Assembly (NCBI GenBank): GCA_964628355.1
Contig: CAZVNB010000014.1
Span: forward strand, 1-63,624
DNA from: an uncultured Planctomycetia bacterium
GTDB taxonomy: Bacteria; Omnitrophota; Gorgyraeia; 2-02-FULL-51-18
Direction: 5' to 3'
Length of the DNA: 63,624 nt
Shown: positions 7,930-51,486 of the stretch, one piece after another
Layout of the letters: every line of letters begins with the position of its first letter
Numbering within the stretch: position 1 is the first letter of the stretch
The notes under the pieces: generated by a model
The model's database searches: none
Seen by the model: only the letters and a program-made list of their open reading frames with translations
What the model was told of the DNA's origin: nothing
Program-made: the position numbers and the translations under genes

Positions 7930-9168
7930 ATGCCCTATTTACGTGTGGTGGTTACCGGTTTGGGAGTTGTGACGCCGGTCGGTAACAATGTCAACGATTT
8001 TTGGACCTCGCTTATCAGCGGCAAAAGCGGCGTTGATCGTTTAACCACGTTTGATCCCCACCAGTTTGACAGCAAAATAGCAGCCGAAGTTAAAAATTAC
8101 GATCCTAAGGCGACGATTCCGATGAAAGAATCCCGTCGCATGGAGAAGTTCTCTCAATTCGCCGTCACGGCGGCTAAAGAGGCCTTCACGGATTCAGGTC
8201 TGGATATGTCCAAGGAGAATCCTTATGAAGTCGGCGTCCTAATTGGTTCCGGCATTGGAAGCCTGCGAATCATTGAAGAAACCCATTCAATTTATCTCGA
8301 ACGCGGCCCCGAAAAATTTTCGCCGTTCATGATCCCTCTTCTTATTATCAATATGGCTTCAGGCTGGGTTTCTATTTTATTGGGACTGAAAGGGCCTAAC
8401 CTTGCCGTAGTCAGTGCTTGCGCCACAGGCACGCATGCGATTGGCGAGGCTTACCGCATGATTCAGCATGGCCAAGCCAAAGCGATGATTGCCGGGGGAA
8501 CAGAAAGTTGCATCACGCCGCTGGGTATCGGCGGATTTTGCGCGCTTAAGGCTCTCTCCAAACGAAATGACGATCCCAAAACGGCCTCAAGGCCGTTCGA
8601 CAAAGATCGTGATGGATTTGTCATGGGTGAAGGTGCGGGAGTGGTGGTGCTCGAAGAGCTCGAACATGCCAGTGCCCGTGGCGCGCGCATTTACGGAGAA
8701 GTCGCGGGGTACGCGCTTAACGGAGATGCTTTTCATATGACTGCACCTCATCCGGAGGGCGAAGGGGCCGCTCACTGCATGAACCAGGTTCTCAGGGAAG
8801 CAAATATGAAGCCCGAAGAAATTACGTACATCAACGCGCATGGGACTTCCACGGAATTAAACGACAAGATAGAAACTCTTGCGATCAAAAAAGTTTTTGG
8901 CGGATATGCAAAAAAAGTTCAGATCAGTTCCACCAAATCGATGACCGGGCACACGCTGGGCGCTGCCGGTGGCATCGAATTTGTGGCTTGCTGTCTTTCG
9001 CTGAAGCACCAAACGTTGCATCCTACGATCAACTGGACCACGCGCGACCCCGAATGCGATCTTGATTATATTCCCAACGTGGCAAGGAAAACGAACGTGG
9101 ATGTTTGTTTGTCCAACTCTCTGGGTTTTGGCGGCCACAACACTTCTTTGATCGTTAAACGGTTTTAG
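7930..9168 (+). CDS. fabF: Beta-ketoacyl-ACP synthase II
   Basis: SACATGTHAIG (Cys), INAHGTST (His), KSMTGHTLGAAG (His), SLGFGGHN. Confidence 0.97.
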   Translation: MPYLRVVVTGLGVVTPVGNNVNDFWTSLISGKSGVDRLTTFDPHQFDSKIAAEVKNYDPKATIPMKESRRMEKFSQFAVTAAKEAFTDSGLDMSKENPYEVGVLIGSGIGSLRIIEETHSIYLERGPEKFSPFMIPLLIINMASGWVSILLGLKGPNLAVVSACATGTHAIGEAYRMIQHGQAKAMIAGGTESCITPLGIGGFCALKALSKRNDDPKTASRPFDKDRDGFVMGEGAGVVVLEELEHASARGARIYGEVAGYALNGDAFHMTAPHPEGEGAAHCMNQVLREANMKPEEITYINAHGTSTELNDKIETLAIKKVFGGYAKKVQISSTKSMTGHTLGAAGGIEFVACCLSLKHQTLHPTINWTTRDPECDLDYIPNVARKTNVDVCLSNSLGFGGHNTSLIVKRF

Positions 9169-9183
9169 ATAGCTTAAGGGCAA

Positions 9184-9963
9184 ATGATGTCTCAATTGCT
9201 TCAGGGGAAAAAGGGCCTCATTCTTGGCGTGGCTAATAAGCGAAGCATCGCCTGGTCTATTGCGCAAAGCGCTGCCGGTGAAGGCGCGCAGTTGGCTTTT
9301 ACTTATCAAGGTGAGCGCTTGGAAGAAAATGTAAAAGAACTTGCCGGCACTTTAAATGGATCTCTGGTGATGCCTTGCGACGTGATGCAGGAGACACAAG
9401 TCGAGGATACTTTCAAAAAAATACAAGAGGCATGGGGCGGGCTTGATTTTGTGGCCCACTGCATTGCGTACGCAAGAGCCGAGGATTTAAGTGGCGGCTA
9501 CACCAAAACAAATAAAGAAGGTTTTGATACGGCGCTGGGCGTGAGCGCCTATTCGCTCACCAGTGTTTGTCAGAAAGCCGCGCCTCTAATGGAAGCTCGG
9601 GGAGGTGGAAGCATTCTCACGCTGACCTATCTCGGCGGGGATCGTGTGATGCCCGGTTACAATGTGATGGGTGTGGCAAAAGCCGCCTTGCAGTGCAGTG
9701 TGCGTTATCTTGCGTATGATTTGGGCAGTAAAAATATTCGTGTCAACGCCATCTCTGCGGGTCCCATCAATACGCTGGCCGCACGCGGCATTTCCGGTTT
9801 TACCGACATTCTCAAAATAGCGCGTGAGAAATCCCCGCTCAAACGAAACACCGAGCCTCAAGAAGTGGGTGATACGGCTCTTTTTTTATTCAGCGCCCTT
9901 AGCCGGGGAATTACTGGCCAAGTGATTTACGTAGACAGTGGCTACAGCATTCTCGGTATTTAA
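9184..9963 (+). CDS. fabI: Enoyl-ACP reductase FabI
   Basis: GVANKRSIAW, YNVMGVAKAAL, NAISAGPINTLAA. Confidence 0.95.
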   Translation: MMSQLLQGKKGLILGVANKRSIAWSIAQSAAGEGAQLAFTYQGERLEENVKELAGTLNGSLVMPCDVMQETQVEDTFKKIQEAWGGLDFVAHCIAYARAEDLSGGYTKTNKEGFDTALGVSAYSLTSVCQKAAPLMEARGGGSILTLTYLGGDRVMPGYNVMGVAKAALQCSVRYLAYDLGSKNIRVNAISAGPINTLAARGISGFTDILKIAREKSPLKRNTEPQEVGDTALFLFSALSRGITGQVIYVDSGYSILGI

Positions 9964-10115: not shown

Positions 10116-13073
10116 GTGCATTTTAAGAAAATAGAAATTATCGGTTTTAAGTCGTTTGCGGGAAAAACGCTTATTGAATTTGAAGCGGGAGTGACTGCTA
10201 TTGTGGGGCCCAATGGTTGCGGGAAATCCAATGTTTCCGACGCGATCCGGTGGGTGCTGGGCGAACAAAGCGCCAAGTCCCTGCGTGGCTCCAATATGGA
10301 AGACGTCATTTTCAACGGCAGCGCCGATCTGGAGCCGCTCAATCTCGCCGAAGTATCTTTGACGCTTTCCAATGAATCTAGAATCTTCGCCATCGACTAT
10401 GAAGAAGTGACGATCACACGGCGTTTGTATCGGTCCGGTGAGAGTGAGTATTTGCTGAATAAAAACGTGGTGCGTTTGCGCGACATTCATGAGCTGCTCA
10501 TGGGAACAGGCATTGGCACCGAAAGTTATTCCGTGATTGAACAGGGCAAGATGGATGTGATATTGAATTCCAAGCCGGAAGACCGGCGCGTCATTTTCGA
10601 GGAAGCCGCAGGCATTACAAAATTTAAATCTAAAAAGAAAGAAGCGCTTCGCAAGCTGGAACAAACGGATGCGAATTTATTGCGCATCAACGATATTATT
10701 CAGGAGGTAAAGCGCCAGATTTCCTCCGTGGAGCGCCAAGCCAAAAAAGCCGAACAGTACAAAATCGAATTTGAAAAAATGAAAGATCTTGAACTACGGG
10801 TTGCTTGCCGAGAATTTCTTTTATTTGACCAGGATCACCGCCACAAGGAAGAGAGCCTCCAATCGCTGAAGCGTCAAGAGGTGGACTGTTTTTCGGTGGT
10901 ACGCTTAATTGAGGAAAAATGCGTCTTGGAAAAAACCCAAGTCCACCGCATCGAAGAATCGCTTCAAGCAGCCAGCGCCCAAGAGGTATGGGTCGGGGCT
11001 GAAATGAGAAAAACTCAAGACCGCATTCTCATGAACCGCGAACGCGTCGGTGAATTGCTTGAGCGAAAAGGCAACTTGGTTCACCAGATGCATGGCGCAA
11101 AAAAACGCCTTGAAGAGCTTGACGTAGAAACATCCAACCTAAACAATCAGCTCGAGCGCGCGAAAGTTGAGGAGGCTCAAGGGGCTTGTTTTCTTGCAGC
11201 GGTGCAAGGGGAGCTTGATGCCGTTGAGGCGTCTTTTGAGACGGCGCGGCAAGAAGAAGGGTTCGCGCAATCCGCCATTCAAGATTTGTCACGGCGTAAA
11301 GCCGCGGAAGAAAACAGTATCGCGCGAATTCACGCGGAATTATCTTCGATGGGCATTCAATGGAAGCGTCTGAAGCAGGAAGAAGAATCCCTGCTCAGGG
11401 AAATTCAAAAAATTGACGAACGCCTGACTCTTCCGCTTTTTGATTCGGCGGGAGCTTCTTCGTTCAGCACGCTGGAAAACAAGCTGCGTGAGTTTAAAGA
11501 AAAGATTTTTTCAATTTTACGCGCGTGGTTTGAACGGCAGCTCGCTCATCCGGGCGCAGAAGAAGAAAGGTTGCTGGAAGGCGATATCCAACGCTTTTCC
11601 GATGAAATATCAAAACTCCAAGGCAACCCCGATACTCGTGAAATCGAAAATAGGCATTTGCGTGACTCTCGCCGCCGCGTGGAAGAAAAACTTTCCGGGT
11701 TGGCGGGCGAACTGGACTTGTTTTCGGCGCAACAAGCGTCTCTGCGAGAACGCGAACAAAACCGAGAGGCCGTCTTGCCGCAGTTTGTCGAAGAAGAAAG
11801 CGGACTATTGCAAAGACTACAAAGCGTGCAAATGTTCCGTACCGATAAACAGCGCGACAAAGAGTCCGTGCTTGTGCAGCTTGCCGAAACGCGTTCACAG
11901 CAAAACAATATTTCTTCGCGTAGAGAAAAAGCCGAGCGAGACCGAAATTGGATACAAGAATCCAGGCGAGGGCAGGAAGAATTGTTGGCGGCGTTTGAAC
12001 GAGAATCCGAAGAATCTCTGATAAAAAAACAATCGTTGGAAGAAGAAAATAGTCGGTTGGAGTCCGATCAAAAGCGACTGGGTCTTGAGCGCGATGAAAT
12101 TTTGAGAAAAGTAGAGGCTTTGCGGCGGGACCGCGACAAGGCGGCCTCCTTGCTGGCGGAGCTCGAGCGCGAACGACAGGAGAAAAACGATTTTTTGAAC
12201 CAGGCGCGCCAACGAGTGCATGCGTTTGAAATGGAGAGTGCGGAAATTCGTTTTGCAATCGATCGGCTTAAAGAGAGGATTTTTAACGCCTATCAAGTGG
12301 ATTTGGCGTTGCAGGCGGGTGTTGCCCAAACGGCAGACGCCTTGAGCGAGCAGATGGAATTGCCTTCTGACATGAATTTTGAACAGGCCAAGCAGGAAAT
12401 CCAAAAATACCGTGAAAAATTAAACCGCATGGGTCCGGTCAATCTCGTTGCGATTGAAGAGCATGAGGAAATGACGCAACGGTTTAATTTCCTCACACAG
12501 CAGGAGCATGACCTTTTAAAGGCCAAGGAAGACCTTCATAAAGCCATTCAAAAAATAAACCGGACCACGCGTGAACTCTTCGCAGATACTTTTTCAAAGA
12601 TCCAGGCCCATTTCTCGGAATATTACCGCCTTTTGTTTGGTGGCGGTTCGGCGGAACTGGTTTTATTGGATGAAAACGATATTTTGGAAAGCGGGATCGA
12701 CATTGTGGCTCGTCCGCCCGGAAAAAAACTTCAGAATATTTCGCTGCTGTCCGGCGGAGAGAAAGCGCTGACGGCAGTGGCGCTTTTATTTGCATTATTC
12801 AAGGTAAAACCCAGTCCTTTTTGCGTGCTGGATGAAATTGATGCGCCCCTGGACGAATCGAATGTGGATCGTTTTTGCAACGTGCTTAAAGAATTTGTTT
12901 CCGCGTCGCAATTCATCGTGATCACGCACAACAAGCGTACGATGAACCTGGCAGATGCCATTTACGGAGTCACCATGGAACAAACAGGCATCAGCAAAAT
13001 CGTTTCTGTAAGATTTTCTTCAATTTTGCCAATGGTTGCGCCGGTGGAAAAAGCGGAGGTCGAGGCGTTTTAA
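10116..13073 (+). CDS. smc: SMC-family chromosome segregation ATPase, short (985 aa), no recognisable hinge domain
   Basis: Head motifs intact: GFKSF, GPNGCGKSN, IEQG, EEAAG, GPVN, LSGGE, LDEIDAPLD, ITHN. Long coiled coils. No GVHG/GRATF/GX6GX3GG hinge motifs visible in the centre. Confidence 0.9.
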   Translation: MHFKKIEIIGFKSFAGKTLIEFEAGVTAIVGPNGCGKSNVSDAIRWVLGEQSAKSLRGSNMEDVIFNGSADLEPLNLAEVSLTLSNESRIFAIDYEEVTITRRLYRSGESEYLLNKNVVRLRDIHELLMGTGIGTESYSVIEQGKMDVILNSKPEDRRVIFEEAAGITKFKSKKKEALRKLEQTDANLLRINDIIQEVKRQISSVERQAKKAEQYKIEFEKMKDLELRVACREFLLFDQDHRHKEESLQSLKRQEVDCFSVVRLIEEKCVLEKTQVHRIEESLQAASAQEVWVGAEMRKTQDRILMNRERVGELLERKGNLVHQMHGAKKRLEELDVETSNLNNQLERAKVEEAQGACFLAAVQGELDAVEASFETARQEEGFAQSAIQDLSRRKAAEENSIARIHAELSSMGIQWKRLKQEEESLLREIQKIDERLTLPLFDSAGASSFSTLENKLREFKEKIFSILRAWFERQLAHPGAEEERLLEGDIQRFSDEISKLQGNPDTREIENRHLRDSRRRVEEKLSGLAGELDLFSAQQASLREREQNREAVLPQFVEEESGLLQRLQSVQMFRTDKQRDKESVLVQLAETRSQQNNISSRREKAERDRNWIQESRRGQEELLAAFERESEESLIKKQSLEEENSRLESDQKRLGLERDEILRKVEALRRDRDKAASLLAELERERQEKNDFLNQARQRVHAFEMESAEIRFAIDRLKERIFNAYQVDLALQAGVAQTADALSEQMELPSDMNFEQAKQEIQKYREKLNRMGPVNLVAIEEHEEMTQRFNFLTQQEHDLLKAKEDLHKAIQKINRTTRELFADTFSKIQAHFSEYYRLLFGGGSAELVLLDENDILESGIDIVARPPGKKLQNISLLSGGEKALTAVALLFALFKVKPSPFCVLDEIDAPLDESNVDRFCNVLKEFVSASQFIVITHNKRTMNLADAIYGVTMEQTGISKIVSVRFSSILPMVAPVEKAEVEAF

Positions 13074-13081
13074 GAGCGAGT

Positions 13082-14251
13082 TTAGGGTTTTTGGTAGGCA
13101 CGCACGCGATTTTTTCCCGCGCGCTTTGCTTCGTACAGCGCGCCATCCGCGCAGAAAATCAGCTTATCTTTGTCGTCGGCGTCTTCGGGATAGCAAGATA
13201 CTCCGATCGATACGGTTGCTTTTTTGGGCATGCCGTCAGAAAACGCGGCGGTTGTGTCGCGTTCGATAGTTTCCCGCAGACGTTCGGCCAATTTCACGGC
13301 TTCGGATTTGGCGGTCCCCGGCAATATCGCCACAAATTCTTCTCCGCCATATCGCGCCAAGTTATCCTTGCGGCGTATCACTGTTTTTGAAATTGCAGAA
13401 ATTATTTCCAGGGCGCGGTCGCCGGCTTGGTGTCCGTAGGTATCGTTATAAGATTTAAAGTCATCCACGTCGAATACAATCAAGCTAAGAGGCAGGCTTT
13501 TTGTTTTGGCCTCTTTGAAGGCTTCGGATAAAATTTTTTGGAAATGACCGTGGTTCCAGAGCTTGGTAAGCGAGTCCTGTTGGGAGGTGATGACGACCTC
13601 ACTGTAGGTCTTGGCATTTTCAAGTGCCAGTCCTGCGTGATTGGCGAGCATCAGGATGCGTCTTAAGTCAGAATCCTTGAGCGGTTTTTTTGTGGTGATG
13701 TTGTCTACCAGCAGCACGCCGATCACGCTGTTTTTTCCACGCAGTGGCACCACGGCAAACTCCGTGATCCCCAAACCAATCAGCAGGGGATCGCATATCT
13801 GATGATTCACGTTTTCTTTCGGCACAACGGAAGGTTTATCGTGAATAACCGTTGCGGGAAGAATGCCGAAAGTTTTTTCGATGGGCAAACGGACCTGCTG
13901 CACGCTTTTGTTGAGCTCGATGTCAATGTTTTTGTTGGCTTTCTTATACACATCCAGCAGGCCTTCCAGCGTGATTTTGTTTTCCTCGATCATTTTCCAA
14001 ATATGCGGTGAAACCTCTGGATGCGTAGGGCCTATGCCCATTTTTCCTTCCAGAGTCGTGCCAAACTCATCCACCATGAAAAGAATGGCGCGGTTGTAGC
14101 CCAAACCCTCGTGGCTAGTCACGGCGCTCAAAATCAAATAAATAACTTCATCTAACAGAAGCGTCGTACGAATTAGGTTCCCAATTTCGTACAAAAGCAA
14201 AAGTTCTTGACGAGTTTTTCGTAGTTCTTCTTGTAATCTAAGTTCTTCCAT
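13082..14251 (-). CDS. GAF-domain diguanylate cyclase (GAF-GGDEF)
   Basis: DSLTKLWNH, DVDDFKSYNDTYGHQAGD, RRKD I-site, ARYGGEEF, ADGALYEAKRAGKN; N-terminal GAF-like region. Confidence 0.92.
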   Translation of the reverse strand: MEELRLQEELRKTRQELLLLYEIGNLIRTTLLLDEVIYLILSAVTSHEGLGYNRAILFMVDEFGTTLEGKMGIGPTHPEVSPHIWKMIEENKITLEGLLDVYKKANKNIDIELNKSVQQVRLPIEKTFGILPATVIHDKPSVVPKENVNHQICDPLLIGLGITEFAVVPLRGKNSVIGVLLVDNITTKKPLKDSDLRRILMLANHAGLALENAKTYSEVVITSQQDSLTKLWNHGHFQKILSEAFKEAKTKSLPLSLIVFDVDDFKSYNDTYGHQAGDRALEIISAISKTVIRRKDNLARYGGEEFVAILPGTAKSEAVKLAERLRETIERDTTAAFSDGMPKKATVSIGVSCYPEDADDKDKLIFCADGALYEAKRAGKNRVRAYQKP

Positions 14252-14257
14252 AGTAGG

Positions 14258-14266
14258 ATATTACCA
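14258..14266 (-). promoter_or_regulatory. Extended -10 promoter, probably giving a leaderless DGC mRNA
   Basis: Minus strand reads TG-G-TAATAT-CCTACT-ATG(14251); no SD. Confidence 0.55.
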
Positions 14267-14301
14267 CAATTTTTTAGGAAAAACCAATTAGCAATCCATC
14301 C

Positions 14302-15042
14302 ATGCCGCCCATAGTCGCATCTGAGCAGCCCAACATCAAAAGCATGTTCGACCGCTTATCGAATCGGTATGACATTTTCAATCGATTAACAAGTTTGGGG
14401 CTAGACAATGTTTGGCGACGAAAAACTTTGTCCGGTGTGAGGCCAGGAATGCGTATTTTGGATATAGGTTGCGGCACTGGGGACTTGAGCCTCTTAGCGG
14501 TCAAACGGTTAAAGGGCCATGGAGAAATCGTCGGCCTAGATTTTTCGGAAAAAATGCTCGAGATTGCCGAAAAAAGGTACCAAAATTTGAGTTTAAGCTC
14601 AGGAAAAGCCGTTTTACGGTTTGTGTGCCGCAGAGCGGAAGAATTGCCTTTTGAGCAAAAACCGTACGATCTTGCGGTCTCGGCATTTGTGCTCCGCAAC
14701 CTTTATGAAAATATGGATGCGATCTTGTCCGGCGTTTTTGAAGCGCTAAGGCCAGGCGCGCAAATCGCTTTTTTGGACTTTACCGAGCCTCCGGGACGCT
14801 TACGCCTGTGGTTGTGGCGTATGTACATGCAAACGGCAGCGGCTGTTTATGGAAATCTTCTTTTTGGCAAGGACTATCCAAAAAATTATATGACAGAATC
14901 TGCCCAACGTTTTTTAAAAGCGCCTGCTTTTGCGGAAAAATTACGTGAAATAGGCTTTGAAAACGTGACGGCGCAAAAATTCATGATGGGGATTATTGTG
15001 TTGTATCGCGCGGCCAAACCATTATCGACCGGCAAGGGATAG
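14302..15042 (+). CDS. menG: UbiE/MenG demethylmenaquinone methyltransferase
   Basis: MFDRLSNRYDIFNRLTSLGLDNVWRR, LDIGCGTGDL, FVLRN, FLDF; heads the menaquinone cluster. Confidence 0.88.
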   Translation: MPPIVASEQPNIKSMFDRLSNRYDIFNRLTSLGLDNVWRRKTLSGVRPGMRILDIGCGTGDLSLLAVKRLKGHGEIVGLDFSEKMLEIAEKRYQNLSLSSGKAVLRFVCRRAEELPFEQKPYDLAVSAFVLRNLYENMDAILSGVFEALRPGAQIAFLDFTEPPGRLRLWLWRMYMQTAAAVYGNLLFGKDYPKNYMTESAQRFLKAPAFAEKLREIGFENVTAQKFMMGIIVLYRAAKPLSTGKG

Positions 15043-15045
15043 AAA

Positions 15046-16518
15046 TTGAAAAAGGGTTTTAAGGATCTTCGCAGTTTCATCGAGCTTCTCGAAAAAAAAG
15101 GAGAACTGCTGCGTATTTCAAAGTTGGTGGACCCCGAGCTTGAGATTACTGAAATCACCGATCGTGTTTCAAAAATGAGCGGAGGGGGCAAAGCGCTTTA
15201 TTTTACAAATGTGAAAGGCGCTCAATTTCCGGTATTGATCAATGCTTTTGGGTCTTACCGGCGCATGGCGCTGGCCATGGGCGCGACAAACATCGAAGAA
15301 GCCGCCCAAAAAATCTCAGCGCTTCTTTCCATCCAGGGAATGCCGAAAAGTTTCTCCGGTAAAGTGAGCCTGCTGAGACAGTTGGTGGATTTGTCGAAGA
15401 TTCCTCCGAAGCGTATTTTGAGCGCGCCTTGCCAAGAAGTGGTGTTGAAGGAAAAGTTTAGTTTGTCCAATTTTCCCATTTTAAAGTGCTGGCCCAAAGA
15501 CGGGGGTCGCTTCATCACGATGCCGCTGGTATTCACCAAGGATCCTGAAACCGGCCAGCGGAATGTGGGAATGTATCGCATGCACGTGTACGATGATCGA
15601 TCCACCGGCATGCATTGGCAGACGCAAAAAGACGGCGCAATTCATGCGCAAAAAGCAAAGAAGCTTGGAAAAAAACTCGAGGTGGCTGTGGTGATCGGAG
15701 TGGATCCAGCGACGGTTTTTTCGGCGGTGGTGCCTTTGCCGTACGGTTTGGACGAGCTTTTGTTCAGCGGCTTCATTCGCAATTCTCCGGTGGAACTTGT
15801 GCGCTGCAAAACTTTGGACTTGGAAGTGCCAGCCGAAAGCGAAATCGTTTTGGAGGGCACCGTCGATCCGGAAGATCTTCGCGAGGAAGGTCCGTTTGGC
15901 GATCACACCGGTGTTTATACGCCAATCGAACTTTTTCCTGTATTTCGAATTCAATGCATCACACACCGAAAAAATCCGATTTATCACACGACGATCGTGG
16001 GAAAACCGCCAATGGAGGACTACTATATGGGCAAAGCCATCGAAAGGACCTTTCTGCCAATTTTGCAGAAACAAATTCCTGAAATTGTCGATATGAATTT
16101 TCCGATGGAAGGAACATTTAATAATGCCGTAATTGTTTCCATCGATAAAAATTATCCTTTCCAGGCGCGCAAGGTCGCGCACGCCATTTTTGGCTTGGGG
16201 CAACTGGCGTTTACGAAATTCGTTATTGTTGTGGATAAAAACGTGAATGTTCATGATCTATCGGCTGTCGCTTTGGCCGTGTTCAATAATATAGATCCCA
16301 AACGGGACATGTCTTTTGTGGAGGGACCGGTAGACACATTGAATCACGCCGCTCCGGTTAGAGACTTCGGGTCAAAAGTCTGTATGGATGCAACGGCCAA
16401 AACCAAAGAAGAAGGGTATGCGCGCACGTGGCCGGAGGAAATAGAAATGGATTCGATGACGAAGAAAAAGGTGGATGGCATGTGGAAAGAGCTGGGAATA
16501 AAAGATGAGCGCTGCTAA
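15046..16518 (+). CDS. mqnL: UbiD-family menaquinone biosynthesis decarboxylase (MqnL)
   Basis: VDPELEITEI, WPKDGGRFIT, NVGMYR, EGPFGDHTG, GSKVCMDAT; futalosine-pathway context; TTG start. Confidence 0.88.
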   Translation: MKKGFKDLRSFIELLEKKGELLRISKLVDPELEITEITDRVSKMSGGGKALYFTNVKGAQFPVLINAFGSYRRMALAMGATNIEEAAQKISALLSIQGMPKSFSGKVSLLRQLVDLSKIPPKRILSAPCQEVVLKEKFSLSNFPILKCWPKDGGRFITMPLVFTKDPETGQRNVGMYRMHVYDDRSTGMHWQTQKDGAIHAQKAKKLGKKLEVAVVIGVDPATVFSAVVPLPYGLDELLFSGFIRNSPVELVRCKTLDLEVPAESEIVLEGTVDPEDLREEGPFGDHTGVYTPIELFPVFRIQCITHRKNPIYHTTIVGKPPMEDYYMGKAIERTFLPILQKQIPEIVDMNFPMEGTFNNAVIVSIDKNYPFQARKVAHAIFGLGQLAFTKFVIVVDKNVNVHDLSAVALAVFNNIDPKRDMSFVEGPVDTLNHAAPVRDFGSKVCMDATAKTKEEGYARTWPEEIEMDSMTKKKVDGMWKELGIKDERC

Positions 16519-16978
16519 CGTGAAAACCAGCCCTGACTCAAAAACACTGAAATTTAGCCTTACTGGGAATCTTGCGTTTGCCTATTTATTGGTCGGATTT
16601 TTTGTTTATTCTTTTTTTAGTTTTTTAAGTTTTTCTTTGTTGAATGCGGGGCCGCTTTGGGGAAGTATTTTGAATTATAGCTTTTATTTTTTTAATCTGG
16701 ATTTGTTGCCGGTGCGCGGGATGCTTTTGTCGTATCCTTTCGTAATCGCTGGGCTGTCCCACTATTTTCCAGGTATCGGTAGTTTCGTTGGGCGTTCAAA
16801 TTTTTTACCTATTTTTTTAATGCTGGTTTATTTTCTGTATTTTTTGGTTTCCGCTTTTCTTGGCCCCATCGGCTTTCTCCGTGTTTATTCCGCCTACAAC
16901 GGATCAGTTCGGGGCAAAAAGGCTTCTCTGGGAATCATCGGATTTTTTCTGTTTGTACGTCTGGCCGAATTACGTTGA
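16505..16978 (+). CDS. Hypothetical polytopic membrane protein (possibly the 5' part of a frameshifted gene)
   Basis: 157 aa, Phe/Leu-rich with several TM-like stretches; overlaps the mqnL stop; no motif recognised. Confidence 0.45.
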   Translation: MSAANVKTSPDSKTLKFSLTGNLAFAYLLVGFFVYSFFSFLSFSLLNAGPLWGSILNYSFYFFNLDLLPVRGMLLSYPFVIAGLSHYFPGIGSFVGRSNFLPIFLMLVYFLYFLVSAFLGPIGFLRVYSAYNGSVRGKKASLGIIGFFLFVRLAELR

Positions 16979-17229
16979 TATGTTTCTACATTTTAAAAAA
17001 AACAGTTCTGCCCTCCCCCGCGAGGAAGTACGGTTTTTTGCTTCCGGTTGCGATTCTCCTTTTTGCCGGTGAAATTTTATTGGCTTTTTTCACATTTTAT
17101 ATAGTGCCTATGATGCATATGCAAGAACAGGATTTGTATGATACGGTACCATCTGCGCTTGCGTTGAGCACGCATCGTCCTTCCATAAACGAGCAGGGCA
17201 AACAATTTTTAATTTACAGTTTCTTTTGA
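16975..17229 (+). CDS. Small hypothetical membrane protein (possibly the 3' part of the same gene)
   Basis: 84 aa from TTG with a TM stretch GFLLPVAILLFAGEILLAFFTFYIVP; 4-nt overlap with the upstream ORF. Confidence 0.35.
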   Translation: MICFYILKKTVLPSPARKYGFLLPVAILLFAGEILLAFFTFYIVPMMHMQEQDLYDTVPSALALSTHRPSINEQGKQFLIYSFF

Positions 17230-17333
17230 AACCTTGGATAAATTTGAAAGACAAATTAACAATGTTTTTATCCCTGCACAGAGGACAAAGCTATCTTAAC
17301 CTCATTCCGGATCTGAAGTACGTCGCGGCGAAT

Positions 17334-17362
17334 TTGATACAATATACATTTTAGTGTATACT
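17334..17362 (+). promoter_or_regulatory. Sigma70 promoter with overlapping palindromic operator of the TA operon
   Basis: TTGATA, 17-bp spacer, TATACT. Inverted repeat TATACA-N6-TGTATA (17343-17360) covers the spacer and -10. SD AGGAGG at 17369-17374. Confidence 0.75.
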
Positions 17363-17378
17363 TTTGTTAGGAGGATTT

Positions 17379-17654
17379 ATGGTGCAAACAATGACATTGA
17401 AGGAGCTAAGGCCGGAACTGCCGAGGGTGGTCGAGCGCATTGATAAGAGGCTGGATCGTTATGTGATTACGCGGCATGGCAAGCCGGTAGTTGTGATGAT
17501 AGGCATCGATGATTATGAGGCGCTCATGGAGACACTGGACATTCTCAATGACCCGGTGACGATGCGCATGTTGAAACAAGGGGAAGCGGACGCCAAAAAG
17601 GGCCGGATGGTTCCCTGGAAAAAGGTAAAGAAATCTCTTGGTCTGGCGTCTTGA
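17379..17654 (+). CDS. Phd/YefM-family antitoxin
   Basis: TLKELRPELPRVV...YVITRHGKPVVVMIGIDDYEALMETLDIL; SD-supported ATG 17379. Confidence 0.92.
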   Translation: MVQTMTLKELRPELPRVVERIDKRLDRYVITRHGKPVVVMIGIDDYEALMETLDILNDPVTMRMLKQGEADAKKGRMVPWKKVKKSLGLAS

Positions 17655-17901
17655 GTTTTCGGGCTCGGCGCACAAAGCCCTGAATTGGATTCAGAAACGA
17701 GAACCTAGTCTTTTTCCAAGAATCATAGAAGTTCTTGAAAGCCTGGGCAAAAACCCCTTTCAGGGAAAACCCCTAAAAGGGGAGTTGATCGGGCGATACT
17801 CTTACCGCGTGGGCTCGTACAGGATTATTTACCGACTGCATAAAGGGGAATTGCTGGTGTTGATACTGAGTATTGGCCATCGTCGGGATATTTATCGTTG
17901 A
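17638..17901 (+). CDS. RelE/ParE-superfamily (RelE-like) toxin
   Basis: WRLEFSGSAHK...NPFQGKPLKG...YSYRVGSYRIIY...IGHRRDIY; overlaps the antitoxin; TTG start. Confidence 0.9.
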   Translation: MVWRLEFSGSAHKALNWIQKREPSLFPRIIEVLESLGKNPFQGKPLKGELIGRYSYRVGSYRIIYRLHKGELLVLILSIGHRRDIYR

Positions 17902-18755
17902 ACATGACTGGTAAAATCAAAACATTTTTTGAACTGATTAAATTCGAGCATACGGTATTTGCATTGCCGTTTGCGTATTTGGGTTTGTGGATGGCAAAAA
18001 AAAGCTGGCCGTCTTGGCGCTTGTTTTTGGCGGTGACTATTGCGATGGTTAGCGCGCGCACGGCCGGGATGACGCTCAACCGTATCGCCGACTGGGCCAT
18101 CGACGCAAAAAATCCGAGAACTAGAAAACGGGCGCTGGTGACCGGTGATTTTTCAATTTTTACGGCTTGGATTGCGGTGGCGGTTTCGGTGCTGATTTTT
18201 TTTCTGGCGGCGGCCTTGCTAAATCCACTTTGTTTTAAGTTGTCTCCGATTGCCCTGTTTTTGATTTCGGGGTATCATTACGTCAAACGCTTCAGTTTTC
18301 TCTGTCATTTTGCGCTTGGGGCAGTGCTTGGCATTGCGCCTGTCGGAGGATGGCTGGCGGCCACCGGGCATTTTTCCTGGCTGCCATTGCCGTTGGCTTT
18401 GGCCGTGATGGCCTGGGTAGCGGGATTCGATATTTTGTACAGTTTACAGGACATGGATTTTGATAAATCTATGGGGCTACATTCCGTTCCGGCACGGTTT
18501 GGCCTCAACCAGTCGCTTAAGATTTCATTTCTATGTCATGTGGCGGCCGTGGCATTCCTGGCGCTTTTTGGTTTTGTGGCGCAGCTGGGGATTTTGTACG
18601 CTTGCGGGGTTTTTATTACGGCTGTTTTGTTGAAAATTGAACATTCTTTGGTCGCGGACGGCGATTTATCGCGTTTGAACACGGCTTTTTTCACGATCAA
18701 TGGCTGGATCGGGATTTTGCTTTTTGTATTTGCTTTCATGGATGTGTACCGATGA
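17898..18755 (+). CDS. mqnP: UbiA-like polyprenyltransferase (MqnP)
   Basis: IKFEHTVFALPFAY, NRIADWAIDAKNPRT, FDILYSLQDMDFD, AFFTINGWIG. Start is TTG 17898 or ATG 17904. Confidence 0.9.
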   Translation: MNMTGKIKTFFELIKFEHTVFALPFAYLGLWMAKKSWPSWRLFLAVTIAMVSARTAGMTLNRIADWAIDAKNPRTRKRALVTGDFSIFTAWIAVAVSVLIFFLAAALLNPLCFKLSPIALFLISGYHYVKRFSFLCHFALGAVLGIAPVGGWLAATGHFSWLPLPLALAVMAWVAGFDILYSLQDMDFDKSMGLHSVPARFGLNQSLKISFLCHVAAVAFLALFGFVAQLGILYACGVFITAVLLKIEHSLVADGDLSRLNTAFFTINGWIGILLFVFAFMDVYR

Positions 18756-19363
18756 AAAAAATTATTGTGGGTATTACCGGCGCCAGCGGAGCCATTTTAG
18801 GTCAAAGGTTGGTGCGTTTTCTGCTGGATGATGGCAACCAAACGCATGTCATCATCAGCCCCAGCGGCGTGTCGGTGTTTGCCGAGGAGTTGGGAATAAA
18901 ACTTGGTAAGTCCCACCAAGAAATCCGAAAAAACTTTCTCAAACAGTATTCGAATCATAAAAATCTTGAGGTAGTGCCGGCGGATGATTTTGCGGCAAAA
19001 ATTTCCAGCGGCTCTTCTTGCATCGACGCGATGGTGATCGCGCCCTGTAGCATGTCCACGGCGGCGGCTGTTGCGCACGGGCTAACATTGAACCTCATCC
19101 ACCGGGCAGCCAGCGTATCGATCAAGGAAAAAAGGCCTTTGATAGTAGTGCCGCGGGAAAGCCCCATGAGCAGCATTCATTTGAGAAATCTTTTGACGCT
19201 TTCCGAAACGGGTGCGTACGTGGTGCCGGCCACCACAGCGTTTTATCACAAGCCAAAAACAGTGGAAGAAATGGTAGATTTCACGCTTGGAAGAGTGCTT
19301 GATATTTTAAAAATAAAGCATAAACTGTTTACGCGTTGGCGCGCGACTGGCGCCGAAGAGTGA
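18752..19363 (+). CDS. ubiX: Flavin prenyltransferase UbiX (MqnM)
   Basis: VGITGASG, ISSGS, IAPCSM, PRESP, AFYHKP. Confidence 0.94.
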   Translation: MKKIIVGITGASGAILGQRLVRFLLDDGNQTHVIISPSGVSVFAEELGIKLGKSHQEIRKNFLKQYSNHKNLEVVPADDFAAKISSGSSCIDAMVIAPCSMSTAAAVAHGLTLNLIHRAASVSIKEKRPLIVVPRESPMSSIHLRNLLTLSETGAYVVPATTAFYHKPKTVEEMVDFTLGRVLDILKIKHKLFTRWRATGAEE

Positions 19364-19365
19364 TT

Positions 19366-19437
19366 TGTCATTGTGAGGCCACGAAGTGGCCGAAGCAATC
19401 TGATCGGTTAGATTGCTTCGCTGCGCTCGCAATGACA
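19366..19437. repeat. 72-bp REP-like palindromic element (GTCATTGCGAG...GAAGCAATC...GATTGCTTC...CTCGCAATGAC type)
   Basis: Outer IR TGTCATTGTGAG/CTCGCAATGACA (11/12). Inner perfect 11-bp stem CGAAGCAATCT/AGATTGCTTCG. Side hairpin GGCCAC-GAA-GTGGCC. Confidence 0.85.
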
Positions 19438-19450
19438 CAAAGTGAGTGGT

Positions 19451-20557
19451 ATGAAAACTATTAAAGAATTCGCGGACATTTTTGACAAAGTAAATGCTGG
19501 AATCCGTCTTTCCCAGGACGATGGGAACCGTCTTATCCAATCCCATAACGTCGTGGAGCTGGGCGCCATGGCTGATTTCGTCAAGCGTCGCCTGCATGGA
19601 AACAAGGCGCATTTCACGCATAGCATCAACGTAAATCATTCGAATATTTGTGTTTTGAGCTGCAAATTTTGTGCATTTGCGAAGACAAAAAAAGATAAGG
19701 AGGCTTATTCGCTGTCCGTGGATGAGATCCAACGTCGCGTCGTCAACGCTGCCAAACATGGCGTATGGGAAGTGCACATCGTCGGTGGTTTGGACCCGGA
19801 TCTGAAACTTTCTTATTATGAAGAAATGCTGCGTGGCATCAAAAAAAATTGTCCCGGCGTTTTAATCCAAGCGTTTACGGCGGTGGAATTGGATTTTTAT
19901 GCGCGTCTTGAAAAAATAGATGTACAAGAAGTCATCGACCGTTTGATCCAGGCGGGGTTAGGCGGCGTACCCGGCGGCGGCGCCGAGATTTTTAGCCAGC
20001 GCGCGCGCGCGCTTATTTGCGCGCCAAAAATCAGCGCGCAGCGCTGGTTGGACATTCACAAGCTTGTGCATCGCGCAGGACTTCGTTCCAACGCGACCAT
20101 GCTTTATGGACATGTGGAAACACCACAAGAGCGCGTGGATCACATGATTCGCTTGCGAAACACCCAGGATGAAACGGGCGGGTTTCTCGCGTTTGTGCCT
20201 CTGGCATTTCAACCGGACCATACGGAACTTTCTTATCTGCCCAGAACCAGCGGTGTGACGGATTTGCAAGTTTTGGCCACGGCAAGGCTCTTGCTGGATA
20301 ATTTTTTGCATATTCGTCAGCTTTGGAATTATGTAGATGAAAAATTTATCCATGTGGCGATGCACACGGGAGTGGATGATCTGGGCGGCACTAATTTTGA
20401 TGAAACCATTGCCAAGGCAGCCGGCTCTCAGTCCAAGGGCTTCACTTACCAAGAGCTGGTGAAATTGATTGTGTCCAATGGACTGGAAGCGATGGAAGTC
20501 AACAGCACTTACACCGATATCCGTAAAGAAAGTTTGGTCGCTGTGGGTTCAGAATGA
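19451..20557 (+). CDS. mqnE: Aminofutalosine synthase (radical SAM)
   Basis: NICVLSCKFCAF (CX3CX2C), EVHIVGG, PGGGAEIF, NATMLYGHVET, ARLLLDNF. Start ATG 19451 (GTG 19442 possible). Confidence 0.88.
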   Translation: MKTIKEFADIFDKVNAGIRLSQDDGNRLIQSHNVVELGAMADFVKRRLHGNKAHFTHSINVNHSNICVLSCKFCAFAKTKKDKEAYSLSVDEIQRRVVNAAKHGVWEVHIVGGLDPDLKLSYYEEMLRGIKKNCPGVLIQAFTAVELDFYARLEKIDVQEVIDRLIQAGLGGVPGGGAEIFSQRARALICAPKISAQRWLDIHKLVHRAGLRSNATMLYGHVETPQERVDHMIRLRNTQDETGGFLAFVPLAFQPDHTELSYLPRTSGVTDLQVLATARLLLDNFLHIRQLWNYVDEKFIHVAMHTGVDDLGGTNFDETIAKAAGSQSKGFTYQELVKLIVSNGLEAMEVNSTYTDIRKESLVAVGSE

Positions 20558-50896: not shown

Positions 50897-51486
50897 AAGA
50901 TACGCAACAGCTCGAGATTTGGAGAGGAAAATTTGGGAAGGCTTACACGGATCGCAATCTCGTCAGCCCTGGAGAGAAGAAACCTTTGTTCAAGAAAATG
51001 CTAAAAGGACTAACATTGTCACAGGTTCTTGAGGTCGGCTGTAACCGTGGCCACAATCTTGTGGCGTTGGCGGATCTTTTAAAGATCGAACCGGTGGGTA
51101 TCGAGCCCAATGATTACGCAAGAAAGAAGGCCAGGCAGGCCGACCCGCGAATTTCGGTTCTTAAAAGCACCGCGTTTGATCTGCCATTTAAGGATGGCGT
51201 GTTTGACCTCGCATTTACTTCGGGTGTGCTGATCCATATTTGTTTGCAGGATCTTCCGCTGGCCATTGACGAGCTCTGTCGGGTGAGTCGACGGTATGTT
51301 CTGGCTTCCGAATATTATGGCGAAAAGGAGACCGCGATCCACTATCGGGGCCACAACCATTTATTGTGGAAGAGAGATTTCAAGTCCCATTTTCTTAAGC
51401 GTCATCCGGAGCTTAAATTAATTCACAGCGGTTTCTACGGAGAAGAGATCAACCATCGCATGGACTGGTGGTTATTTGAAAAGTAG
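50893..51486 (+). CDS. Pseudaminic acid biosynthesis-associated methyltransferase
   Basis: QLEIWRGKFGKAYTDRN, LEVGCN.G.NL, FTSGVLIH, EYY...YRG....LWKRDF. Confidence 0.85.
   Translation: MKDTQQLEIWRGKFGKAYTDRNLVSPGEKKPLFKKMLKGLTLSQVLEVGCNRGHNLVALADLLKIEPVGIEPNDYARKKARQADPRISVLKSTAFDLPFKDGVFDLAFTSGVLIHICLQDLPLAIDELCRVSRRYVLASEYYGEKETAIHYRGHNHLLWKRDFKSHFLKRHPELKLIHSGFYGEEINHRMDWWLFEK

What the first reader, a model, noticed from the sequence alone, without database searches (positions are those of the whole stretch)
10116..13073. SMC ATPase with intact heads but apparently no hinge domain
Seen: one uninterrupted 985-aa ORF with all SMC head motifs and the GPVN arm motif. The centre (aa about 437-507, nt 11424-11640: LTLPLFDSAGASSF...AHPGAEEE...GNPDT) has no hinge motifs (GVHG, GRATF, GX6GX3GG) and no Rad50 CxxC hook. 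Known: bacterial SMCs are about 1,150-1,200 aa and dimerise through a hinge of about 150-180 aa; the roughly 200-aa deficit matches a missing hinge. Inference: a fold-back SMC with a novel apex dimerisation module, or one that dimerises only at the heads, which would challenge ring-based loading and loop-extrusion models. No scpA/scpB in the window.
Basis: partly seen in the sequence, partly recalled or inferred. Interest (0 to 1): 0.75.

Follow-up and report, generated by a model that had tools for sequence, protein, structure and literature searches.

The report
Natural hinge-less SMC condensin in Omnitrophota
This gene is the organism's ordinary chromosome-organising SMC ATPase, but the central dimerising "hinge" domain has been cut out and replaced by a plain helical hairpin, and a whole clade of Omnitrophota bacteria shares this design, so it is a natural test of whether the hinge is needed.

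Summary
ORF 10116-13073 (+) encodes a 985-aa SMC with intact head motifs. It has no hinge by Pfam (E<=10) or by a clade-specific hinge HMM, and no CxxC hook.

It is not an artefact or decay. About 44 protein clusters from independent assemblies, labelled Candidatus Omnitrophota where named, share the architecture at 49-80% identity. Head halves are ~82% identical within the clade. The gene sits in the same fabF-fabI-smc-GGDEF-ubiE slot as the canonical 1,205-aa, hinge-bearing SMC of a relative.

The deletion removed the ~170-aa hinge and ~65 aa of distal N-arm. AF2 predicts that the first ~50 aa of the former C-arm fold back as two short helices (aa 446-473 and 481-501). This gives an extended hairpin with its tip at aa 474-480 and no globular apex. 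The tip carries a conserved, unusually hydrophobic patch.

Best reading: a functional Smc ortholog that closes its dimer through this helical tip. Tip dimerisation is inferred, not shown. ScpAB and a second SMC could not be checked.

Precedents exist. Engineered B. subtilis Smc works with a Rad50 zinc hook in place of the hinge, and a 2025 paper reports hinge-less SMCs in ocean metagenomes. This is a new variant of a known kind, of solid interest.

The parts
10116..13073 (+). smc gene, 985 aa, hinge-less positional ortholog of canonical Smc
   Evidence: ORF. SMC_N 5e-73 with no PF06470. TIGR02168 842 bits against a 567 cut-off. B. subtilis Smc head 1e-143. Same locus as canonical smc in a relative.
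10116..10610 (+). N-terminal head half (aa 1-165) with Walker A GPNGCGKS (aa 31-38) and VIEQG (aa 140)
   Evidence: Motifs. Mean pairwise identity 0.82 within the short clade. Foldseek 53-58% identity to Bacillus/Geobacillus Smc heads.
10611..11429 (+). N-arm helix (aa 166-438), about 65 aa shorter than in canonical relatives
   Evidence: AF2 helix 154-438. Walker A to hinge-start relic is 408 aa, against 473 aa in P0036.
11430..11450 (+). L-P-L-F motif and variable Gly/Ser-rich loop (aa 439-445). Probable relic of the hinge-start motif EGF(L/W)GG.
   Evidence: L441 in 27/36 and F442 in 25/36 sequences. P0032 keeps GFWG exactly where its sister P0036 has HEGFWGGVKALL; P0018 has PLFGGV. AF2 loop with pLDDT below 50.
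11451..11534 (+). Apex helix A (aa 446-473, ...LENKLREFKEKIFSILRAWFE). This is the former post-hinge C-arm start (GRExRIRE...), now running in the N-strand position. It is basic, and its end is a hydrophobic patch (aa 462-472).
   Evidence: AF2 helix 446-473 with block pLDDT 75-85. F/W460 in 34/36, K/R461 in 36/36, K/R463 in 33/36. Hydrophobicity 0.51 against an arm mean of 0.26+-0.09, among the top four 11-residue windows. Collinear with the P0036 post-hinge segment.
11535..11555 (+). Tip turn (aa 474-480, RQLAHPG), the predicted apex of the molecule
   Evidence: AF2 non-helical 474-480. Variable in sequence and length, with frequent P/G. Model geometry matches a long two-helix hairpin, TM 0.70-0.71 to p85 iSH2.
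11556..11618 (+). Apex helix B (aa 481-501, AEEERLLEGDIQRFSDEISKL), acidic, predicted to pair antiparallel with helix A
   Evidence: AF2 helix 481-501. E484, L487, D/E488 (36/36), E490, I/V491 and F494 (34/36, the most conserved central residue).
11619..11627 (+). Kink Q-G-N (aa 502-504) between helix B and the C-arm, level with the LPLF loop on the other strand
   Evidence: AF2 break 502-504. Q502 in 25/36 and G503 in 23/36.
11628..12515 (+). C-arm (aa 505-800), including a predicted break at about aa 727-777 that contains the invariant MGPVN motif (aa 772-776)
   Evidence: AF2 helices 505-551 and 554-726, breaks 727-777, helix 778-841. G773, V775, L777, A779 and E782 are invariant across 77 short and canonical sequences.
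12516..13070 (+). C-terminal head half (aa 801-985) with signature LSGGE (aa 878), Walker B/D-loop FCVLDEIDAPLD (aa 902) and H-loop ITHN (aa 936)
   Evidence: Motifs. Mean pairwise identity 0.81 in the clade. Matches PDB 5h66_B at 4e-64; entry 5h66 is the B. subtilis Smc head complexed with the ScpA C-terminal domain.
7930..9963 (+). fabF (7930-9168) and fabI (9184-9963), the conserved upstream neighbours that define the smc locus
   Evidence: ORFs. Same order in hinge-less loci L001, L006, L087 and L088 and in hinge-bearing locus L002. In hinge-bearing L005 an mgtE gene lies between fabI and smc.
13082..15042 (.). Downstream neighbours: GAF-GGDEF gene (13082-14251, minus strand) and ubiE methyltransferase (14302-15042, plus strand), the conserved downstream boundary of the locus
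   Evidence: Pfam GGDEF 8e-45 plus GAF. ubiE follows smc in all loci examined, and GAF-GGDEF is also present in L001, L002, L006, L087 and L088.

Best explanation
**What it is.** This is the organism's single-locus Smc, the ATPase core of the bacterial Smc-ScpAB condensin. In one clade of Candidatus Omnitrophota the hinge has been deleted.

**Shown.**
- An ancestral in-frame loss removed the ~170-aa hinge together with ~65 aa of the distal N-arm.
- The head halves and the proximal arms remain under strong constraint.
- The gene occupies the ancestral smc slot.
- Sub-lineages have further trimmed both arms symmetrically while keeping the apex helices.

**Predicted.** The first ~50 aa of the old C-arm, having lost their N-arm partner, fold back on themselves as helix A (basic, aa 446-473) and helix B (acidic, aa 481-501). 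The monomer is then one continuous antiparallel coiled-coil hairpin. It is about 30 residues per strand shorter than in canonical relatives (roughly 4-5 nm, my estimate). Its tip is at aa 474-480, and a flexible break lies one helix below the tip (LPLF loop and QGN kink).

**Inferred.**
- Two such hairpins are held together at the tip by the conserved, unusually hydrophobic end of helix A (aa 462-472) together with F460 and F494. They would form a small four-helix bundle that does the one job the hinge must do, which is constitutive dimerisation.
- ATP-driven head engagement, kleisin bridging and arm zipping would then work as in ordinary Smc-ScpAB. DNA entrapment and loop extrusion would proceed without a hinge DNA-binding surface.
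For: **Real and conserved.**
- About 44 clusters of 821-994 aa lack PF06470, at 49-80% identity over 98-100% of the query. They come from NCBI, ENA, JGI and Logan assemblies, on contigs up to 399 kb.
- Heads are 0.81-0.82 mean pairwise identity within the clade. The protein matches the B. subtilis Smc head at 1e-143 and passes the TIGR02168 equivalog cut-off.

**Orthology.**
- Gene order is identical (DUF748, coaD, yceD, rpmF, plsX, fabH, fabD, fabG, acpP, fabF, fabI, smc, GGDEF, ubiE) in hinge-less L001 and hinge-bearing L002.
- The same fabI-smc-GGDEF-ubiE slot is seen in L006, L087 and L088.

**Deletion map.**

**Hairpin apex.**
- The AF2 full-length model and the AF2 apex fragment (pLDDT 81.9) agree on the helices.
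- The best structural matches are long two-helix hairpins, TM 0.70-0.71.

**Tip interface.**
- Anchor residues are conserved and the two helices carry complementary charge.
- The tip is among the four most hydrophobic 11-residue windows of the arm region.
- The apex helices are retained in the arm-shortened variants.

**Precedent that any dimeriser suffices.** Smc(Zh), with the hinge replaced by the Rad50 zinc hook, supports normal growth, whereas loss of hinge dimerisation inactivates Smc (PMC5344682).
Against: - Tip dimerisation has not been tested.
- The apex as a whole is no more conserved than the distal arms (0.27-0.38).
- Apex pLDDT in the full-length model is low (37-64).
- The fold search gave no significant hit and no known dimerising fold.
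- ScpA, ScpB, ParB and a possible second SMC or MukB-type protein could not be looked for in any hinge-less genome.
- The arm shortening of ~30 aa, and the further variants of roughly 14 to 82 aa per arm, do not obviously follow the ~91-99-aa periodicity reported for functional B. subtilis arms.
Confidence: 0.55

Rival explanations
1. Functional Smc ortholog that does not dimerise at the apex. Two fold-back rods are held together only by ATP-dependent head engagement, the asymmetric ScpA bridge, ScpB and lateral arm-arm zipping. DNA would be held in the head/kleisin compartment or clamped on the heads, and there would be no closed SMC lumen.
For: - The AF2 apex is a plain hairpin with no recognisable dimerisation fold.
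- The apex is not more conserved than neighbouring arm segments.
- The tip turn is variable in length and sequence.
- The head halves, which match the B. subtilis Smc head constructs crystallised with ScpA fragments (PDB 3zgx, 5h66), are the best-conserved parts.
Against: - In B. subtilis, abolishing hinge dimerisation gives a non-functional protein (PMC5344682).
- The conserved aromatic and hydrophobic excess at aa 460-472 and F494 exceeds what a two-stranded coiled coil needs.
- The apex helices survive in every arm-length variant.
Confidence: 0.25
2. The hairpin tip is a docking site for a separate partner. This could be a trans-acting bridging protein, or a second hinge-bearing SMC-family protein encoded elsewhere, so that the complex is closed in trans or is a heterodimer.
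For: - The hydrophobic, charged tip could equally be a hetero-interface.
- The rest of each genome could not be inspected.
Against: - The short gene occupies the ancestral smc slot.
- None of the canonical SMCs listed in the two protein searches has a longest contig of the same length as a short SMC's contig. This is weak evidence only.
- No candidate partner gene is conserved next to smc in any locus.
Confidence: 0.08
3. The short protein no longer works as a condensin. It is either a decaying gene or has been repurposed, for example as a Rad50- or RecN-like repair factor or a defence ATPase.
For: - NCBI names several members only 'AAA family ATPase' (P0027, P0058, P0061).
- Arm lengths drift within the clade from 821 to 994 aa.
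Against: - Intact ORFs occur in about 44 clusters, with heads ~82% identical.
- Arm deletions are symmetrical, so the antiparallel pairing is preserved.
- The protein passes the Smc equivalog cut-off, while Rad50, RecN and ASRP models score far below theirs.
- No nuclease or defence partner gene is adjacent.
- No PADLOC scan was run.
Confidence: 0.07
4. Assembly or gene-calling artefact in this contig.
For: None found.
Against: The same architecture, with the same junction motifs, appears in dozens of independent assemblies from four data sources.
Confidence: 0.01

Closest known systems
Canonical bacterial Smc of Smc-ScpAB condensin (B. subtilis Smc; TIGR02168)
   Same: - Head halves with all ATPase motifs.
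- A long antiparallel coiled-coil arm with a mid-arm break containing the MGPVN motif.
- 53-58% identity to Bacillus/Geobacillus head structures.
- Passes the equivalog HMM cut-off.
- Occupies the smc slot of hinge-bearing Omnitrophota relatives.
   Different: - No hinge domain of any kind.
- Arms about 30 residues per strand shorter.
- The apex is a bare helical hairpin.
- ScpAB partnership not verified.
Engineered B. subtilis Smc(Zh) and Mini-Smc (Burmann et al. 2017, PMC5344682)
   Same: An Smc whose hinge is replaced by a small, structurally unrelated apex, and whose arms are resized. Smc(Zh) supports normal growth, which shows that the hinge fold is dispensable.
   Different: - Smc(Zh) has a proven dimeriser, the zinc hook with CxxC. 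Here there is no Cys and dimerisation is only inferred.
- The natural arm lengths here do not obviously fit the reported ~91-99-aa periodicity.
'Hinge-less' SMC cluster from ocean metagenomes, assigned to Actinomycetes (Environ Microbiome 2025;20:65, PMC12153180)
   Same: - Natural bacterial SMC homologs (COG1196) with a head and coiled coil but no hinge and no CxxC.
- Not found together with a regular SMC in the genomes screened by that paper.
- Function and mechanism unknown.
   Different: - Different phylum assignment and habitat.
- Sequence relationship to this clade was not tested.
- The apex module here has no relatives outside its own clade among 1.84 billion representative proteins.
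- That paper gives no positional orthology, deletion map or apex anatomy.
Rad50 / SbcC
   Same: An SMC-like ABC head with a fold-back coiled coil and no globular hinge; dimerises through a tiny apex element.
   Different: - No CxxC zinc hook.
- Rad50 HMMs score 39-60 bits against cut-offs of 700-1087.
- No Mre11/SbcD gene nearby.
- Head sequence is clearly Smc-type.
RecN (recalled from my own knowledge: SMC-like, no hinge, reported to dimerise through the coiled-coil tips)
   Same: The concept of tip-to-tip dimerisation of a hinge-less fold-back coiled coil.
   Different: - TIGR00634 scores 32 bits against a cut-off of 408.
- RecN arms are much shorter.
- No structural match was recovered.
- This resemblance is a lead from memory, not a test.
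Other hinge-reduced SMCs seen here (L007 and L008 Omnitrophota, L020 Kiritimatiellia, P0126, P0155)
   Same: SMC_N proteins of 1050-1094 aa with no PF06470 hit.
   Different: L007, L008 and L020 keep full-length arms and a ~70-90-aa central remnant that may still be a small domain. Their centres are unrelated in sequence to the apex described here. P0126 and P0155 were not examined beyond their Pfam listing.

Membership tests
Bacterial Smc (Smc-ScpAB condensin, TIGR02168 SMC_prok_B) | Split ABC ATPase head with Walker A, Q-loop, signature motif, Walker B/D-loop and H-loop | tested here: met
   All motifs located. SMC_N 5e-73. B. subtilis Smc head 1e-143.
Bacterial Smc (Smc-ScpAB condensin, TIGR02168 SMC_prok_B) | Whole-protein score above the curated equivalog cut-off | tested here: met
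   842.5 bits against a cut-off of 567.35, in two stretches; the first maps aa 3-436 to profile positions 2-436 of 1181.
Bacterial Smc (Smc-ScpAB condensin, TIGR02168 SMC_prok_B) | Long intramolecular antiparallel coiled-coil arm with a mid-arm break (joint) | tested here: met
   AF2 helices 154-438 and 505-841, with breaks at 727-777 that contain the invariant MGPVN motif.
Bacterial Smc (Smc-ScpAB condensin, TIGR02168 SMC_prok_B) | Central globular hinge domain (PF06470) that mediates constitutive homodimerisation | tested here: not met
   No PF06470 at E<=10. The clade-specific hinge HMM gives no hit at the apex. Only helices are predicted there.
Bacterial Smc (Smc-ScpAB condensin, TIGR02168 SMC_prok_B) | Orthologous genomic position relative to hinge-bearing Smc of relatives | tested here: met
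   Identical neighbourhood in hinge-less L001 and hinge-bearing L002; the same slot in L006, L087 and L088.
Bacterial Smc (Smc-ScpAB condensin, TIGR02168 SMC_prok_B) | Partner kleisin ScpA and ScpB encoded in the genome | not testable with these tools
   None in the window or in the ~20-kb loci. scpAB is also unlinked to smc in the canonical relatives.
Rad50/SbcC | CxxC zinc hook at the coiled-coil apex | tested here: not met
   No CxxC in the protein and no Cys at aa 430-510; 0 of 44 short proteins have a central CxxC.
Rad50/SbcC | Family HMM score above cut-off, and an Mre11/SbcD partner gene | tested here: not met
   Rad50 models score 39-60 bits against cut-offs of 700-1087. No nuclease gene is adjacent.
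RecN | TIGR00634 equivalog score | tested here: not met
   32 bits against a cut-off of 407.85.
Natural hinge-less SMC (as described in PMC12153180) | SMC-type head and coiled coil, no hinge, no CxxC, forming a cohesive clade rather than isolated truncated sequences | tested here: met
   description.
Natural hinge-less SMC (as described in PMC12153180) | Same evolutionary lineage as the published oceanic cluster | not tested
   The published sequences were not retrieved. Taxonomic labels differ (Actinomycetes versus Omnitrophota). The apex profile finds nothing outside this clade.

The most novel reading that the evidence does not exclude
The SMC hinge is naturally dispensable for a bacterial condensin. 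In Omnitrophota it has been replaced by a minimal self-associating helical tip made from re-folded arm sequence.

Hinge loss would also not be a one-off. Hinge-less and hinge-bearing alleles are interleaved among close relatives: P0032 against P0036 have flanking UbiD 93% identical, and L001 pairs with L002. Other hinge-reduced forms exist in Omnitrophota and Kiritimatiellia.

So the hinge-less state either arises repeatedly or spreads between lineages by recombination of the central smc cassette. Either route would imply that it is selectively favoured in these organisms.
Probability: 0.35. Interest if true: 0.8.

Novelty: new variant of a known kind. Interest (0 to 1): 0.62.

Why it matters
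The hinge is one of the three defining parts of every textbook SMC. It has been proposed to be the constitutive dimeriser, a DNA-binding site and a DNA entry gate.

Engineering in B. subtilis showed that a foreign dimeriser can replace it. Whether evolution ever dispenses with it in a housekeeping condensin has been barely documented; I found one 2025 metagenomic report, with no anatomy or mechanism.

This clade offers:
- a positional ortholog with a mapped deletion;
- a 60-residue apex that can be transplanted and tested;
- natural arm-length variants (821-994 aa);
- hinge-bearing sister lineages as controls.

It makes three questions directly testable:
- What is the minimal apex requirement for DNA entrapment or loop extrusion?
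- Is hinge-DNA contact needed?
- How strict are arm-length rules outside B. subtilis?

If the tip does not dimerise, this would be the first housekeeping Smc that works without a closed SMC lumen, which would be much more disruptive.

Tried and rejected
1. **Divergent hinge hidden in the centre.** Rejected by Pfam at E<=10, a clade-specific hinge HMM run with --max and all-helical AF2 models.
2. **Rad50-like hook.** Rejected: no Cys in the centre of any of the 44 members.
3. **Paralog or defence SMC.** Rejected by synteny and HMM scores. No PADLOC scan was run.
4. **In-silico dimer test.** No multimer prediction or coordinates are available, so the topology was inferred only from Foldseek geometry.
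5. **Second SMC, ScpAB and taxonomy through the genome collection.** It did not answer the question, though it did reveal L007, L008 and L020.
6. **Full-length Foldseek.** It returns only other SMC-family rods at TM 0.1-0.2 and says nothing about the apex.
7. **Single origin versus repeated loss.**
   - The NJ tree intermixes short and canonical forms, as does the flanking-gene tree.
   - P0032 has a P0036-like backbone, but its apex is more similar to other short forms.
   - A dedicated search found no second example of that allele.
   - Recombination, parallel loss with convergence and assembly chimera therefore cannot be separated.
   - Synonymous sites between the two genes look close to saturated (about 80% nucleotide identity where protein identity is 90-100%), so I judged a dS test to have no power and did not run it.
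8. **ScpA motif scan.** A six-frame regex scan of the window and ten loci found nothing. The pattern came from my memory of the family, so this is a weak negative.


Full report
**1.

The window contains one uninterrupted ORF at 10116-13073 on the plus strand, with a GTG start, encoding 985 aa. The following head motifs are present:
- Walker A GPNGCGKS (aa 31)
- VIEQG (aa 140)
- signature LSGGE (aa 878)
- Walker B/D-loop FCVLDEIDAPLD (aa 902)
- ITHN (aa 936)
- MGPVN (aa 772)

Pfam gives SMC_N at 5e-73 spanning aa 3-960, and does not list SMC_hinge (PF06470) even at E<=10. NCBIfam TIGR02168, the bacterial Smc equivalog, scores 842 bits against a cut-off of 567. The match falls in two stretches, the first mapping aa 3-436 to profile positions 2-436 of 1181. 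The head matches the crystallised B. subtilis Smc head at 1e-143.

I built a 183-position hinge HMM from 19 hinge-bearing Omnitrophota SMCs. It scores at least 79.5 bits on every canonical relative. In the short proteins it finds nothing at the apex. There is no CxxC anywhere in the protein and no Cys between aa 430 and 510.

**2. It is a conserved clade, not an artefact or decay**

A search of 5.8 billion proteins returned about 44 clusters of 821-994 aa without PF06470. They are 49-80% identical to the query over 98-100% of its length. They come from NCBI, ENA, JGI and Logan assemblies, on contigs of up to 399 kb. Where a source names them, most are labelled Candidatus Omnitrophota.

Aligned with 33 hinge-bearing Omnitrophota SMCs of 1180-1226 aa, they show one clean central gap. 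Within the clade the head halves are 0.81-0.82 pairwise identical, while the distal arms and apex are 0.27-0.41.

An exhaustive profile search with the apex alignment against 1.84 billion representative proteins found only three representatives at E<=1e-10, all from this clade. The apex is therefore lineage-specific.

**3. It is the ortholog of ordinary smc**

The gene order around the window's smc is DUF748(-), coaD, [yceD, rpmF region], plsX, fabH, fabD, fabG, acpP, fabF, fabI, smc, GAF-GGDEF(-), ubiE, ubiD and the menaquinone genes. The neighbourhoods compare as follows:
- Hinge-less P0054 (L001) has this order.
- Hinge-bearing P0048 (L002, 1,205 aa with PF06470, on a 1.59-Mb contig) has the same order from DUF748 to ubiE.
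- Hinge-less P0018 (L006) also has it.
- The arm-shortened P0051 (843 aa, L087) and P0058 (911 aa, L088) sit in the same fabI-smc-GGDEF-ubiE slot.

The window contains no scpA, scpB or second SMC. The hinge-bearing loci do not have them near smc either, so the absence is uninformative.

**4. What exactly was deleted**

The closest short/canonical pair is P0032 (985 aa) and P0036 (1,216 aa). They are 92-96% identical in the heads and 70-78% in the arms.

P0032 retains GFWG exactly where P0036 has the hinge-start motif HEGFWGGVKALL. It resumes with RIRQFKEKI where P0036 has the post-hinge GRESRIRECAESL. So 169 aa of hinge are cleanly excised, together with about 52 aa of distal N-arm.

In the window protein the L-P-L-F motif (aa 439-442) and KLREFKEK (aa 456-463) are the corresponding relics. 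Two length comparisons with P0036 complete the picture:
- Post-hinge motif to MGPVN: 317 aa in the window protein against about 321 aa in P0036. The C-strand length is unchanged.
- Walker A to the hinge-start relic: 408 aa against 473 aa. The N-strand is 65 aa shorter.

The deletion is therefore the hinge plus about 65 aa of N-arm. That leaves the first ~50 aa of the C-arm without a partner.

**5. Predicted structure of the apex**

The full-length AF2 model used 77 sequences and reached a mean pLDDT of 72.5. It predicts the following elements and no beta-rich domain:

| Element | Residues |
|---|---|
| N-arm helix | to 438 |
| Loop | 439-448 |
| Helix | 449-473 |
| Turn (RQLAHPG) | 474-480 |
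| Helix | 481-501 |
| Kink (GNP) | 502-504 |
| C-arm | from 505 |

A fragment model of aa 400-540, built with 24 short-clade fragments, reached pLDDT 81.9 and gave the same four helices.

Foldseek found no significant match for the fragment. The only good geometric matches (TM 0.70-0.71) are to the p85 iSH2 domain, which is a long antiparallel two-helix hairpin. The model is therefore an extended fold-back hairpin:
- Helix A continues the N-strand and helix B begins the C-strand.
- The tip is at aa 474-480.
- Both strands are interrupted at the same level, by the LPLF loop on one and the QGN kink on the other.

By my estimate this shortens the arm by about 30 residues per strand, roughly 4-5 nm.

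**6. Evidence for a functional tip**

The apex is not globally more conserved than the neighbouring arm, but it has strong anchor residues:
- L441 and F442
- F/W460 (34/36)
- K/R461 (36/36) and K/R463 (33/36)
- E484, L487, D/E488 (36/36), E490 and I/V491
- F494 (34/36, the best-conserved central residue)
- Q502 and G503

Helix A is basic and helix B is acidic. The end of helix A (aa 462-472, EKIFSILRAWF) is among the four most hydrophobic 11-residue windows of the ~640-residue arm region. It scores 0.51 against a mean of 0.26+-0.09. The other top windows lie in the head-proximal arm (188-198, 227-237) and at the predicted break around 722-732. By my reading, the hydrophobic residues at the end of helix A occupy more positions than a single a/d stripe, whereas helix B has one regular stripe.

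The arm-shortened variants P0047, P0051, P0055, P0058 and P0061 lose matching segments on both arms but keep helices A and B. This fits a tip that contacts something. A second copy of itself is the most economical candidate, but no test of dimerisation could be run.

**7. Comparison with what is known**

Burmann et al. 2017 (PMC5344682) report three relevant results:
- Loss of hinge dimerisation inactivates B. subtilis Smc.
- Arm length is constrained with a ~91-99-aa period.

Tatebe et al. 2020 (PMC6969161) showed the converse swap in Rad50. A 2025 study (PMC12153180) reported a monophyletic, abundant "hinge-less SMC" cluster in ocean metagenomes. It was assigned to Actinomycetes, had no CxxC, and came with no mechanism.

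A full-text search for SMC, hinge and Omnitrophota together found no paper. The concept is therefore known. The new elements here are this clade, its positional orthology, its deletion map and its apex anatomy.

**8. Evolutionary pattern (unresolved)**

Short and canonical forms are interleaved in an NJ tree of shared columns. Three further observations bear on this:
- The P0032 and P0036 genomes are close relatives. Their flanking UbiD is 93% identical and UbiE 87%, against 74-77% and 40-58% to the other loci.
- P0032's apex (aa 451-525) resembles other short forms (normalised score 0.39-0.47) more than any canonical SMC (0.28 or less). Identity to P0036 collapses to 13-27% over aa 466-560 and recovers to 80% by aa 576.
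- A flanking-gene tree built from fabH, fabG, fabF and fabI (1,236 columns) pairs hinge-less L001 with hinge-bearing L002 at 92% bootstrap.

This suggests either recombinational spread of the central cassette or repeated loss. However, P0032 is still a singleton after a dedicated search, so an assembly chimera is not excluded.

Independent hinge reductions of another kind do exist. L007 and L008 (Omnitrophota) and L020 (Kiritimatiellia) are ~1085-1094 aa, have full-length arms and carry a ~70-90-aa remnant in place of the hinge. P0126 and P0155 also lack PF06470.

**9. Verdict**

This is a real, conserved, hinge-less Smc ortholog.
- Shown: the absence of a hinge, the conservation, the orthology and the deletion map.
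- Predicted: the hairpin apex.
- Inferred: tip-mediated dimerisation and a retained ScpAB-dependent condensin function.

I put about 0.85 on it being a functional Smc ortholog. I put about 0.55 on the full model, which includes tip dimerisation. It is a new variant of a known kind, with interest 0.62.

Noticed in passing
L007:3001-6267, L008:3001-6249, L020:3001-6282; proteins P0126, P0155: These are other SMCs without a Pfam hinge. L007 and L008 are from a different Omnitrophota lineage (1089 and 1083 aa) and L020 is from Kiritimatiellia (1094 aa). All three keep full-length arms and have only a ~70-90-aa central remnant, unrelated in sequence to the apex described here. P0126 (1050 aa) and P0155 (1086 aa) also lack PF06470. 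Hinge reduction appears to have happened several times.
   Followed up: partly
P0047, P0051 (L087:6001-8532), P0055, P0058 (L088:6001-8736), P0061, P0038, P0049: Within the hinge-less clade, some members are 821-958 aa because matching segments are deleted on both arms, roughly 14 to 82 aa per arm by my estimate. Helices A and B are kept. P0051 and P0058 sit in the same genomic slot. These lengths do not obviously follow the ~91-99-aa periodicity reported for B. subtilis arms.
   Followed up: partly
L004:108-3065 (P0032) versus L005:10001-13651 (P0036): A hinge-less and a hinge-bearing smc occur in two closely related genomes (flanking UbiD 93% and UbiE 87% identical). A central segment of about 170 aa is 13-47% identical, while the rest of the gene is 70-100% identical. 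P0032 is a singleton, and its contig starts about 100 nt upstream of smc. Recombination, parallel loss or assembly chimera cannot be told apart.
   Followed up: partly
proteins P0027, P0058, P0061, P0126: NCBI annotation names these hinge-less SMCs only 'AAA family ATPase'. P0027 is also binned as Candidatus Eisenbacteria, so hinge-less SMCs are easy to miss in annotation-based surveys.
   Followed up: no
window 17364-17901 (+): A type II toxin-antitoxin pair, Phd/YefM antitoxin (3.6e-16) overlapping a ParE/RelE-family toxin (2.1e-12). In the window it lies between ubiD and ubiA. At that position L001 and L004 have a STAS-domain gene, and L006, L087 and L088 have no gene called.
   Followed up: partly
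window 23091-63000 (for example 28038-29639, 34791-36284, 51476-53149, 53080-55467, 55572-57392): A very large glycan-biosynthesis region. It includes four PMT_2-type and one YfhO-type polytopic membrane glycosyltransferases. It also includes NeuB-like, cytidylyltransferase-like, two UDP-GlcNAc 2-epimerase, DegT aminotransferase and several GT2 genes, some of which I identified only by reading the translations. Almost all are on the plus strand.
   Followed up: partly
window 14302-22556 (+): A menaquinone cluster that looks like the futalosine route (ubiE, ubiD, ubiA, ubiX-like flavoprotein, radical-SAM genes, VitK2_biosynth) lies directly downstream of smc. The arrangement is conserved in all related loci.
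   Followed up: no
window 1-63624: GC skew is positive in all but the first 2-kb window, and about 50 of 64 called ORFs are on the plus strand. This is consistent with the whole contig lying on one replichore's leading strand.
   Followed up: no
window 29620-30963 (+) and 16505-16978 (+): A 447-aa and a 157-aa predicted membrane protein have no Pfam hit at E<=0.001.
   Followed up: no
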